Source: Naegleria gruberi
Taxonomy: Eukaryota
Reading direction: 5' to 3' (one strand)
Assembly: GCA_000004985.1 (NCBI GenBank)
Contig: GG738863.1
Length of the DNA stretch: 64,000 bases
Positions within the stretch are counted from its first letter, which is position 1; every line of letters starts with the position of its first letter. The notes beneath the pieces were generated by a model that made no database searches, was not told where the DNA came from, and was given only the letters and a program-made list of their open reading frames with translations. Shown here piece by piece: positions 1-2,302 of this stretch. The position numbers were made by a program, and so were the translations under genes.

Positions 1-2302
1 CTGTCCAACAATTCTGGAATTGGAGGTTCAGTTGCGAGGGCCAAAGCAGCAAAGGTGTCCATGATCAAGTTAACCCACAAAAGTTGGATAGCAGTCAATG
101 GAGGATCCATATGCTTACTATGAGAACCAGCTGGTGGACTAATAATGAATGAGGTCAAAGCAGTAATGACAGTAACCAACAAAGCACAAACGTTAACAGT
201 CAATTGGAAGACTAAGAATTTACGAATATTTTCATAAATAGTTCTTCCCCACAAGACAGACTTGATAATAGAGCTAAAGTTATCATCCATAATAATAATA
301 TCAGAGGCTTCCTTAGCAATTTGAGTACCAGCAATACCCATACTCAAACCAACATCAGCTTCCTTAAGAGCAGGACCATCGTTAGTACCGTCACCAGTAA
401 CAGCAACAACTTCACCGAGAGCTCTGAGTCTCTTAACTAACTTAAACTTATCAGTTGGAGAAGATCTAGCCATAACTTGGAGTCTTGGCAAGATATCATC
501 AATTTGATACATTGTCTACAGCATCATAACTTCACACGCAATGGATCCTTAATACCGACAATAGCAATCAAAGTAGAACCATTTTCAATAGCTTCTTGAT
601 CTTCGAAATCTTCATTTCCTCTCAAATCCTTATAGGCCAAAGTCAAAGTTCTCAAACCTTGAGAAGCCATATTTTCAATATCTTGCATCCACTTCTTCTT
701 TTCAGATTCGGACAAAGCAGAAACTGAACCATCCTTCAAAATTTGACTAGTACACAAACCCAAAACAATTTCAGAAGCACCCTTCAAGTACAATCTATGA
801 GCACCTTCATCAGTCTTGACAATGACAGCCATTCTCTTCTTGGCAGATGAGAAGGTGTACAACTTTTCAATCTTATCATTTTCAGTATAATGCTTTCTAA
901 TTGGAACATAATCAATACCCAAATCCTTCAAGAGAATCAAGAGAGAAGCTTCAGTCTTGTTACCACTGACTTCATATTCCTTCAAGGAACCAGTCTTTGG
1001 CTTGTTCAAAGAAGCCTTTGAGTTGACAGAAATACCGTGAGAAAGGACTTGAACAACCTTGGTATGCATTCCATCAGTATTATCTGGCAAACCATCAAGA
1101 TATTCTTCACCTGCAATGACAGCCTTGACAACTCTCATTTCGTTCAAAGTCAAAGTACCAGTCTTATCGGAACAAATGTTAGTAGCACCACCCATAGTTT
1201 CACAAGCTGACAAGTGTCTGACGAGATTGTTATCCTTCATCATCTTCTTGACAGAATAGGCCAAAGAAATAGTGACAGCCAATGGTAAACCTTCTGGAAC
1301 AGCAACGACGACAATAGTTACTGAAATAATAACAAATCCTACAATAGTACTAATATCAGACCAAGACCAAACATCGGTACCAACATTGGTTTGCCAAATC
1401 TTCTTAATCAACCAACCAGCCATCAAGACACAGAAAGTAGCAACAGCAAAACCAACACCGAATTTACCAATAAGAGTAGCCAAATCATCCAACTTGGCTT
1501 CAAGTGGAGTCTTGTCATCTTCATCATCAGCAGTAATCTTTGCCAATGTTTTACCCCATTCGGAGTTAACACCAACACAAGTAACTAACATTCTACCATA
1601 ACCTTCAGAAACAACTGTTCCGGAGAGAAGGAATGGAGCTTCGTCATTCTTCTTGATAAGATCAGTTTCACCAGTCATTACAGATTCATCAGTCTTCAAA
1701 TCGTGATATTCACAAATAACACCATCAGCTGGGACTTGATCACCTTGTTCAATTTCAACAATATCACCAACTACAATTTGACCAATTTGTACAGTACTTG
1801 TTTCACCATCACGGACAACTTTAATTTTGATGTCTTCGCTTTCCTTTGATAATTCTCTGAATTTACGTTCCTTTTGCCAATCGTTAACAGAGGCAACAGT
1901 GGAAACAATTAAAACGGCCAAAACAATGGCAAAACCTTCAATCCAACCGAATGGTCTGTCTTCTTCTCTTTCTGGGAAAGCAACACCCAAAACGATAGAG
2001 ACAACAGCTAATACTAATAAAACAATAAGAAGTGGATCTTGAATAGCTTCAAGGAAGAGTTTCCACAAAGGTACCATAGGTTTCTTTGGATATTCATTCT
2101 TACCAAATTGTTCTTGTCTGTCAGCTTCTTCAGCGAAGTGAATACCTTTTCTAAGATCAGTATTTAAAGCGTTAGCAAGACCTTCAGAACCTCCCAATTC
2201 TCTGAGAGCTAACACATCTCTACTTTCCAACAAGTCATCCAATTGTTGGAGAGTCACGCTATAGGAACCGTAGCTGTCCCTCATTTCTACGTCGCGTGGC
2301 AT
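1..2302 (-). CDS. Ca2+-transporting P-type ATPase (PMCA/PMC1-like), N-terminal about 770 aa; gene runs off the window start
   Basis: Real ATG at 2302-2300 (aaaaaaaaATGccacgc); the ORF-track start at 2368 is a TTG. Translation shows P-type motifs DKTGTLT, KGASE, DPLR, then after a frame change at 516-535 [43 protein letters not shown]. The MVTGDN hinge segment is absent (see finding). Confidence 0.85.

What the first reader, a model, noticed from the sequence alone, without database searches (positions are those of the whole stretch)
500..540. P-type Ca2+-ATPase lacks the universally conserved MVTGDN hinge; the gap is occupied by a 20-nt GT..AG spacer
Upstream translation matches PMCA/PMC1 continuously through DKTGTLT, KGASE and ...[10 protein letters not shown], then reaches a TGA at 526-524. 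The conserved continuation [20 protein letters not shown]...[15 protein letters not shown] resumes 4 codons after a TAG (518-516), in another frame. In PMCA, DPxR and the KIWPKLRVLARSSP block are separated by about 66 residues (PEVxxAIxxCxxAGIxVxMVTGDNxxTAxAIAxxCGI...). Here only the 20 nt GTGAAGTTATGATGCTGTAG (535..516) lie between them. If those are removed the frame is restored, but the TGD hinge is still absent. Possible explanations are a recent in-gene deletion (pseudogene), an assembly collapse, or a real hinge-less paralog.
Basis: partly seen in the sequence, partly recalled or inferred. Interest (0 to 1): 0.6.

Follow-up and report, generated by a model that had tools for sequence, protein, structure and literature searches.

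The report
Broken calcium-pump gene hidden by fake intron
The "hinge-less" calcium pump of Naegleria gruberi is not a new kind of enzyme: 139 bases are missing from an otherwise healthy gene in the reference sequence, and the public annotation hides the damage with an invented 20-base intron.

Summary
On the minus strand a PMCA-type Ca2+-ATPase gene reads through ...IVGIKDPLR, hits TGA (526-524), and resumes in another frame at [23 protein letters not shown] is absent.

The window is Naegleria gruberi NEG-M. The public protein XP_002678219.1 (D2VCT4) equals the window translation with exactly 535..516 spliced out.

These 20 nt are not a spacer or an intron. Aligned to three intronless orthologs, 535..509 is the remnant of codons V-E-V-I-D-A-V-K-Q-C carrying three single-base deletions. 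A 136-nt deletion follows, so 139 nt are missing in total and the frame shifts by one. Everything else is colinear with the orthologs (83% identity) and under strong purifying selection (dN/dS 0.06-0.16). Of the 120 best homologs, 119 keep TGD.

A second gene 25 kb away (KCTD9-like) has a single-base deletion that the public annotation patches with a 14-nt "intron".

Verdict: this is an annotation artefact laid over a local lesion in the reference sequence. I favour a low-quality or collapsed patch of the 2010 Sanger draft (about 55%) over a real, very recent null allele (about 40%). A functional hinge-less paralog is very unlikely (3% or less). Interest is low, but the database entry should be flagged.

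The parts
536..2302 (-). 5' part of the PMCA-type Ca2+-ATPase gene, from ATG 2302-2300 to CGT 538-536 (R of GIKDPLR). The deposited model starts at the second Met, 2284. It is intact and intronless and carries Cation_ATPase_N, E1-E2_ATPase, DKTGT, the N domain and KGASE.
   Evidence: colinear with orthologs
509..535 (-). Frame-shifted remnant of ten codons, V-E-V-I-D-A-V-K-Q-C, which form the first helix after DPLR. It carries three single-base deletions and one substitution relative to the orthologs: GTG-TGAAGTTA-TGATGCTGT-AGACAATGT.
   Evidence: 0/5000 shuffles reach the score against each of three orthologs
516..535 (-). The 20 nt GTGAAG..TGTAG that the public gene model (XP_002678219.1) removes as an 'intron'. 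This is an annotation patch, not an intron.
   Evidence: the translation with it removed equals P0001
524..526 (-). In-frame TGA that ends the upstream reading frame (...DPLRVKL*).
507..509 (-). Breakpoint of the 136-nt deletion, between 509 and 508 with 1 nt of ambiguity. The missing DNA encodes K599-D643 of ortholog P0002: KKSGIFVRMVTGDNILTAQHIARECGILFGDGIAIEGPNFRKMSD.
1..508 (-). 3' continuation of the same gene in the shifted frame: (Y)[20 protein letters not shown]...[11 protein letters not shown]...TM5-6. It runs off the window end. The rest of the gene is intact according to P0001.

Best explanation
The locus is an ordinary single-exon PMCA/ACA-type (P2B) Ca2+-ATPase gene of Naegleria gruberi NEG-M. 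Its reference sequence carries a compact lesion: three single-base deletions within 27 nt, immediately followed by a 136-nt deletion (139 nt in total, frame -1). The lesion removes the P-domain strand that ends in T-G-D (HAD motif II) and the helix that follows it. The deposited 'hinge-less' protein exists only because the annotation pipeline stepped over the stop codons with a 20-nt GT..AG pseudo-intron. I judge the lesion most likely to be a defect of the 2010 Sanger draft, that is a thinly covered, low-quality or collapsed patch, or a deleted clone, rather than a property of the organism. What is shown: the anatomy of the lesion, the pseudo-intron, the integrity and constraint of the rest of the gene, and a second patched frameshift nearby. 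What is inferred: that the cause is technical.
For: The window is N. gruberi, and P0001 (XP_002678219.1, EFC45475.1, D2VCT4) matches it at 100%.

P0001 is reproduced exactly by deleting 535..516.

Three orthologs (L001, L002, L003; 78-82% identity to the query) are uninterrupted ORFs. The DNA alignment against them shows the remnant codons plus the three 1-nt gaps and the 136-nt gap.

Outside the lesion, P0001 and P0002 are colinear along their whole length at 83% identity with only one other 1-residue gap. dN/dS is 0.06-0.16 on both sides, the same as between intact orthologs. Four lesions therefore sit within about 30 nt of a gene that shows no other decay.

The damage is one-sided: errors about every 9 nt, then an abrupt clean restart. 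This resembles a degrading read tail joined to another read.

A second conserved gene in the window (KCTD9-like, 25.7 kb) has a single-base deletion relative to its orthologs, and its deposited model P0135 removes a 14-nt GT..AG stretch at 25688-25701. Pseudo-introns over frame breaks are therefore a habit of this annotation, and single-base deletions recur in this draft.

Plausible genuine introns in the window are 37-91 nt long and start with GTAAGT or GTATGT, not GTGAAG. The median intron in N. lovaniensis is 80 bp (PMC6125883).
Against: No read-level or independent N. gruberi sequence could be reached, so the technical origin is an inference. The window contains no N run, so the lesion is not at a declared gap. 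Base-calling errors explain 1-nt deletions easily but explain a clean 136-nt loss in unique sequence less easily. The rest of the window looks well sequenced, with uninterrupted 1013-aa and 1184-aa ORFs. A real complex deletion from error-prone break repair would give the same picture.
Confidence: 0.55

Rival explanations
1. The lesion is real. NEG-M, or one of its haplotypes, carries a very recent null allele of this PMCA gene, created by one complex mutational event: a 136-nt deletion with error-prone repair synthesis on one flank. The gene is a newborn pseudogene, tolerated because N. gruberi has other PMCA paralogs and the strain has long been kept axenically.
For: The stop codons and the deletion are present in the only available sequence. 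No N run or other assembly flag is seen. Other N. gruberi PMCA paralogs exist (P0021 and P0023, 47-49% identity, both with MVTGDN). Heterozygosity in N. gruberi is reported (PMC9928731, citing Fritz-Laylin 2010), so a null haplotype could have been the one assembled. Clustered lesions are expected from a single repair event.
Against: There is no sign of relaxed constraint anywhere else in 2.7 kb, so the event would have to be extremely recent. Three separate 1-nt deletions spaced about 9 nt apart on one side only is not a typical repair scar. A second conserved gene nearby shows the same kind of single-base deletion, which is more economically explained by draft-grade consensus errors than by two fresh pseudogenes within 25 kb.
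Confidence: 0.4
2. This is a genuine hinge-less paralog. The 20 nt are spliced as an ultra-short intron and the cell makes a 915-aa PMCA-like protein without TGD, acting as a pseudo-enzyme or regulator.
For: GT..AG borders are present and removal restores the frame. Both flanks are perfectly conserved.
Against: The 'intron' is homologous, base for base, to coding codons of intronless orthologs, with frameshifting deletions.

The spliced product is not colinear. It reads T-M-Y from out-of-frame K-Q-C codons and lacks 11 residues that are invariant in 50 homologs: V591, G602, V605, R606, M607, T609, G610, D611, T615, A616 and G635.

In the AF2 model of the intact ortholog, the lesion covers helix 589-600 (scrambled by the frameshifts) and deletes strand 604-608, TGD, helix 613-623, strand 631-634 and helix 635-640, all at pLDDT about 90. 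The model of P0001 drops below pLDDT 50 at the junction (581-600) and also at the DKTGT loop (375-381).

Only 1 of the 120 closest homologs lacks TGD, and it is this one.

The 5' site GTGAAG and the 20-nt length lie outside what the window's plausible introns show.
Confidence: 0.03
3. The missing exon lies elsewhere, for example moved by a rearrangement, trans-spliced, or inside a larger intron.
For: None beyond the absence itself.
Against: tblastn and blastn searches with the ortholog hinge found only chance-level matches anywhere in the 64 kb. The orthologs are single exons. The remnant codons abut the downstream coding sequence directly.
Confidence: 0.01

Closest known systems
Intact orthologs of the same gene: P0002 (ENA ERZ2098899, contig NODE_181, locus L001), P0003 (ENA ERZ27315067, locus L002) and Willaertia magna ABK040_007865 (P0004, locus L003)
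   Same: They share a single-exon gene and the same domain order. Identity to the query was 78-82%, and 83% between P0001 and P0002. They are colinear along the whole length, and the flanking motifs [11 protein letters not shown] and [13 protein letters not shown] are identical.
   Different: They contain (V/P)EVIDAVKQCKKSGIFVRMVTGDNILTA(Q/S)HIARECGIL...EGP.FRK between the two flanks. The N. gruberi reference lacks 139 nt of this stretch.
Plasma-membrane Ca2+-ATPases with solved structures: Arabidopsis ACA8 (8qmp), human PMCA1 (6a69) and PMCA2 (9gsd)
   Same: The ortholog hinge and P-domain segment aligns to them at E 1e-55 to 1e-59, with only short loop insertions in the solved chains and with MVTGDN, SSPxDK and GDGTND conserved. 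The N. gruberi gene has all other P2B hallmarks.
   Different: The N. gruberi reference has no TGD strand or following helix. No solved or listed homolog lacks it.
Pseudo-introns inserted by automated gene modelling to bridge sequence errors in draft genomes (general phenomenon; spurious models from draft errors are documented for the rhesus macaque in PMC3426473)
   Same: A very short GT..AG stretch is chosen only because it removes a stop codon or frameshift. The same thing is seen twice in this window: 20 nt in the PMCA gene and 14 nt in the KCTD9-like gene.
   Different: The rhesus paper documents frameshift errors, missing exons and invented exons, not mini-introns specifically. That mini-introns are a known side effect of homology-based gene modellers rests on my own knowledge.

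Membership tests
P2B (PMCA/ACA-type) Ca2+-ATPase | Phosphorylation motif DKTGT | tested here: met
   CSDKTGTLT is present in the upstream ORF.
P2B (PMCA/ACA-type) Ca2+-ATPase | Pfam architecture Cation_ATPase_N, E1-E2_ATPase, Cation_ATPase (N domain), Hydrolase, Cation_ATPase_C | tested here: met
   All were found across the two reading frames. Hydrolase reaches only 21.9 bits, below its cut-off of 26.4, in the downstream piece.
P2B (PMCA/ACA-type) Ca2+-ATPase | Ca2+-site residues of TM4 (PEGL) and TM6 (N..D) | tested here: met
   [10 protein letters not shown] and LWVNLIMDT were read in the translations. Their assignment to the Ca2+ site rests on established knowledge of SERCA and PMCA.
P2B (PMCA/ACA-type) Ca2+-ATPase | P-domain hinge M-V-T-G-D-N (HAD motif II Thr) | tested here: not met
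   It is absent from the window in all frames. It is present in 119 of 120 homologs and invariant in 50 of 50 aligned homologs. As encoded by this reference, the locus cannot give an active member. By descent it is clearly this gene.
P2B (PMCA/ACA-type) Ca2+-ATPase | GDGxNDxP (HAD motif IV) and the SSPxDK lysine (motif III) | tested here: met
   ARSSPTDK and [13 protein letters not shown] are in the downstream frame.
Spliceosomal intron (for 535..516) | GT..AG borders, with removal giving one ORF | tested here: met
Spliceosomal intron (for 535..516) | Interrupts the coding sequence, so it is not itself homologous to codons of intronless orthologs, and the spliced product is colinear with them | tested here: not met
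   The 20 nt align to codons V-E-V-I-D-A-V of three orthologs with 1-nt gaps. The product lacks 53 aligned residues.
Spliceosomal intron (for 535..516) | Length and 5' splice-site consensus typical of the organism | tested here: inconclusive
   Plausible introns in the window are 37-91 nt with GTAAGT, GTATGT or GTAAGC. The N. lovaniensis median is 80 bp. At 20 nt with GTGAAG this stretch is an outlier, but the sample is small and has no transcript support.
Spliceosomal intron (for 535..516) | Removal observed in transcripts | not testable with these tools
   No N. gruberi cDNA or RNA-seq data are reachable.
Unitary pseudogene | Disabling lesions in the genomic sequence | tested here: met
   There are premature stops, a frameshift and the loss of a catalytic motif.
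Unitary pseudogene | Relaxed selective constraint, with further decay elsewhere in the gene | tested here: not met
   dN/dS is 0.06-0.16 on both sides and there are no other indels. This is compatible only with a very recent event.
Unitary pseudogene | Lesion confirmed in independent reads of the organism | not testable with these tools
   No other N. gruberi copy was found in the protein collection or in the metagenome scan.
Draft-assembly or consensus defect | Lesions tightly clustered in an otherwise intact, constrained gene, with similar frame-breaking errors nearby | tested here: met
   the 1-nt deletion in the KCTD9-like gene
Draft-assembly or consensus defect | Low coverage or low quality at the site in the underlying reads | not testable with these tools
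   Traces and quality values are not available.

The most novel reading that the evidence does not exclude
NEG-M truly carries the 139-nt lesion and still expresses the locus. It would make either a 592-aa truncated protein (A domain, TM1-4, N domain) or, through splicing of a 20-nt micro-intron, a catalytically dead PMCA-like protein kept for a non-pumping role.
Probability: 0.03. Interest if true: 0.5.

Novelty: not a real feature. Interest (0 to 1): 0.1.

Why it matters
The value is mainly database hygiene. XP_002678219.1 / D2VCT4_NAEGR is distributed in RefSeq, UniProt and EukProt as a "P-type II calcium ATPase" that lacks a motif invariant in the family. Its 20-nt "intron", and the 14-nt one in the neighbouring KCTD9-like model, would distort intron-length statistics, motif surveys and any training set built from this proteome. 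If the lesion turns out to be real, it is just one fresh null allele in a lab strain. Either way, it gives no new insight into P-type ATPase mechanism.

Tried and rejected
- **Second copy or displaced hinge exon in the window.** I found only chance matches.
- **Independent N. gruberi copies in the protein collection.** The full-length query returned only P0001 at 100%. A 191-aa N-domain query returned nothing above 47% identity, and oddly did not return P0001 either, apparently because candidates are limited by length. Exact look-ups of four possible ORF products were all absent. The contig look-up for P0001 found no record.
- **Metagenome scan with a degenerate IVGIKDPLR pattern.** It gave 57 loci, none N. 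gruberi-like. Every match that is a readable PMCA gene encodes the TGD hinge (mostly MVTGDN); a few short matches are not PMCA genes.
- **Literature.** I found no paper mentioning this accession, nothing specific on Naegleria PMCAs, and the 2010 genome paper is not held.
- **Repeats, microhomology or hairpins at the breakpoint that could explain a collapse.** Nothing convincing turned up. There is only 1 nt of ambiguity at the junction.
- **Rfam and tRNA scans.** Nothing lies at the locus.
- **Readthrough, selenocysteine or programmed frameshifting.** I rejected these because 45 codons are physically missing.

Full report
**Observation**

On the minus strand an ORF starts at ATG 2302-2300 and encodes a P-type ATPase through [14 protein letters not shown] and ...[14 protein letters not shown] (CGT 538-536). 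It then reads V-K-L and stops at TGA 526-524. A different frame is open after TAG 518-516. It reads [23 protein letters not shown]...[15 protein letters not shown]...[20 protein letters not shown] and runs to the window edge. Pfam finds Cation_ATPase_N, E1-E2_ATPase and Cation_ATPase in the first piece. In the second it finds Cation_ATPase_C plus a sub-threshold Hydrolase hit. No frame encodes MVTGDN.

**Identity**

The window is Naegleria gruberi NEG-M. The fused query hits "P-type II calcium ATPase [Naegleria gruberi]" at 100% identity. This is P0001, 915 aa, with accessions XP_002678219.1, EFC45475.1 and D2VCT4. Deleting exactly 535..516 from the minus strand and translating reproduces P0001 over all 754 residues that the window encodes. 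The "20-nt GT..AG spacer" is therefore the intron of the deposited gene model.

**What the 20 nt really are**

The next best hits are P0002 (82%, 975 aa), P0003 (78%, 1008 aa) and Willaertia magna P0004 (78%, 1003 aa). All contain DPLR(V/P)EVIDAVKQCKKSGIFVRMVTGDNILTA.HIARECGIL...EGP.FRK...(E/D)[13 protein letters not shown]. Their genes are single uninterrupted ORFs on their contigs.

The DNA alignment shows the N. gruberi sequence after CGT as GTG-TGAAGTTA-TGATGCTGT-AGACAATGT. The orthologs read GTGTTGAAGTTATTGATGCTGTCAAACAATGT. The first ten codons of the missing block (V-E-V-I-D-A-V-K-Q-C) are therefore still present but carry three single-base deletions and one substitution. A gap of 136 nt follows. 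The alignment then resumes at ATCAAATTGATGATATCTTGCCAAGA, which matches (D)EIDEILPR.

The similarity of the 29-nt remnant to each of the three orthologs was reached by 0 of 5000 shuffles. In total 139 nt are missing, which explains the one-base frame change. The 20 nt are degraded coding sequence, and the T-M-Y in the deposited protein comes from out-of-frame K-Q-C codons.

**Rest of the gene**

P0001 and P0002 align end to end at 83% identity. The only other gap is a single residue. Nei-Gojobori dN/dS against the three orthologs is 0.09-0.16 for the 5' part and 0.06-0.13 for the 3' part in the window. Between intact orthologs it is 0.09-0.10. The gene shows no decay apart from this 30-nt spot. 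The hinge is not encoded anywhere else in the 64 kb.

**What is lost**

In an alignment of 50 intact homologs the affected stretch contains 11 invariant residues: V591, G602, V605, R606, M607, T609, G610, D611, T615, A616 and G635 in P0002 numbering. There are many more near-invariant ones. Among the 120 best homologs, only P0001 lacks TGD. Where the DPxR motif could be located, the DPxR-to-GDGxND spacing in the other homologs is 92-111 residues, against 47 here.

The ortholog segment aligns to Arabidopsis ACA8 (8qmp), human PMCA1 (6a69) and PMCA2 (9gsd) at E 1e-55 to 1e-59.

In the AF2 model of P0002 (mean pLDDT 82.7, about 90 across this region) the lesion has these effects:
- It scrambles helix 589-600.
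- It deletes strand 604-608, the TGD turn, helix 613-623, strand 631-634 and helix 635-640.

The model of P0001 falls below pLDDT 50 at the junction (581-600) and also at the DKTGT loop (375-381).

From established knowledge of the HAD fold and of SERCA (Thr625-Gly626-Asp627), the Thr of TGD is HAD motif II and contacts the phosphoryl group. A protein without this strand cannot be expected to form the aspartyl-phosphate intermediate. This last step is inference from the literature and was not tested here.

**A second case in the same window**

A BTB_2 plus pentapeptide-repeat (KCTD9-like) gene on the plus strand changes frame near 25.7 kb with no room for an ordinary intron. Its deposited model P0135 ("predicted protein, partial") equals the window translation with a 14-nt GT..AG stretch (25688-25701) removed. 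Orthologs are colinear through ...CP(S/T)GKGG(F/L)..(F/L)QGLNL.... The DNA alignment to a Logan contig (L061) shows one missing base near 25712. This annotation therefore bridges frame breaks with mini-introns, and single-base deletions recur in this draft sequence.

By contrast, candidate introns in the window that join conserved motifs or carry consensus 5' sites are 37-91 nt long. They start with GTAAGT, GTATGT or GTAAGC. One example is a 37-nt GTATGT..AG intron that joins HKK|KCDRTLPACLNCTK in a Zn2Cys6 gene. The median intron in N. lovaniensis is 80 bp (PMC6125883).

**Interpretation**

It is established that the "hinge-less ATPase" is an annotation construct laid over a compact 139-nt lesion in the reference sequence of an otherwise normal, constrained gene.

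It is open whether the lesion is in the organism or only in the 2010 Sanger draft. I favour a technical origin at about 55%, for these reasons:
- Four lesions lie within 30 nt of a gene with no other damage.
- The damage is one-sided, with single-base deletions every 8-9 nt followed by an abrupt clean restart, as in a degrading read tail joined to another read or a deleted clone at a thinly covered spot.
- The neighbouring gene shows the same type of single-base deletion.

From my recollection, which I did not check, draft Sanger consensus has roughly one error per 10^4 bases, so a few such errors per 64 kb would be expected.

Several points argue against a technical origin:
- There is no N run at the site.
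- Long neighbouring ORFs are clean.
- A 136-nt loss in unique sequence is not a simple base-calling error.

A real, very recent null allele from one complex repair event (about 40%) fits the same data. It is plausible in a heterozygous organism (PMC9928731) that has other PMCA paralogs (P0021, P0023).

A functional hinge-less paralog with a 20-nt intron is at 3% or less. A displaced exon is at about 1%.

**Independent evidence sought and not found**

No paper mentions the accession. Public NEG-M Nanopore and EM-seq/WGBS data do exist (PMC12344493) and would settle the matter in minutes.

**Verdict**

The finding is ordinary. The biological claim of a hinge-less P-type ATPase is not real. Interest is low (0.1). 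The practical outcome is to flag XP_002678219.1/D2VCT4, the KCTD9-like model, and more generally the sub-30-nt introns in the N. gruberi v1 annotation.

Noticed in passing
window 25285-26141 (+), break near 25688-25722: A KCTD9-like gene (BTB_2 plus pentapeptide repeats) has a single-base deletion relative to its orthologs near 25712. The deposited N. gruberi model (P0135, 'partial') bridges it with a 14-nt GT..AG pseudo-intron at 25688-25701. A 20-nt GT..AG stretch (25703-25722) would also restore the frame, which shows how easily such 'introns' arise by chance.
   Followed up: yes
window 3079-5191 (-), intron 4501..4411: A leishmanolysin (Peptidase_M8)-like gene directly upstream of the ATPase appears to be split by a 91-nt GTTTGT..TTTAG intron. 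The joined zinc motif would read H-M-M-Y-H-I-M-G-F, that is HExxH with Met in place of the catalytic Glu, suggesting an inactive GP63-like paralog.
   Followed up: partly
window 46099-46063 (-): A very short but convincing intron of 37 nt (GTATGT...CCAGAG) lies inside a Zn2Cys6-type gene. Splicing joins ...HKK to KCDRTLPACLNCTK. Other candidate introns of 45-64 nt have GTAAGT, GTATGT or GTAAGC starts (17873-17917, 59996-60040, 37343-37402, 24283-24346). N. gruberi introns can therefore be short, though none here approaches 20 nt.
   Followed up: partly
window 16478-16526 (+): An adenylate/guanylate-cyclase-like gene (ORFs 15934-16524 and 16521-17876) changes frame where only 26-32-nt GT..AG candidates exist. 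This could be another very short intron or another frameshift in the draft.
   Followed up: no
window 34615-35385 (+); locus L001 3947-4753: A protoglobin gene lies about 32 kb from the ATPase in N. gruberi. In the related contig L001 a protoglobin gene sits directly upstream of the ATPase ortholog, which hints at a local rearrangement between the species. Downstream synteny (PRP38, Med4, Ras) is shared by L001-L003 but falls outside this window.
   Followed up: no
window 19935-20007 (-) and 22085-22157 (-): There are two tRNA genes: tRNA-Ile (AAT) and tRNA-Ala (TGC).
   Followed up: no
tool behaviour: A 191-aa sub-query taken from P0001 did not return P0001 or its orthologs, only proteins of 105-306 aa. 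The word-index search seems to restrict candidates by length, so negative results from short queries are weak.
   Followed up: no
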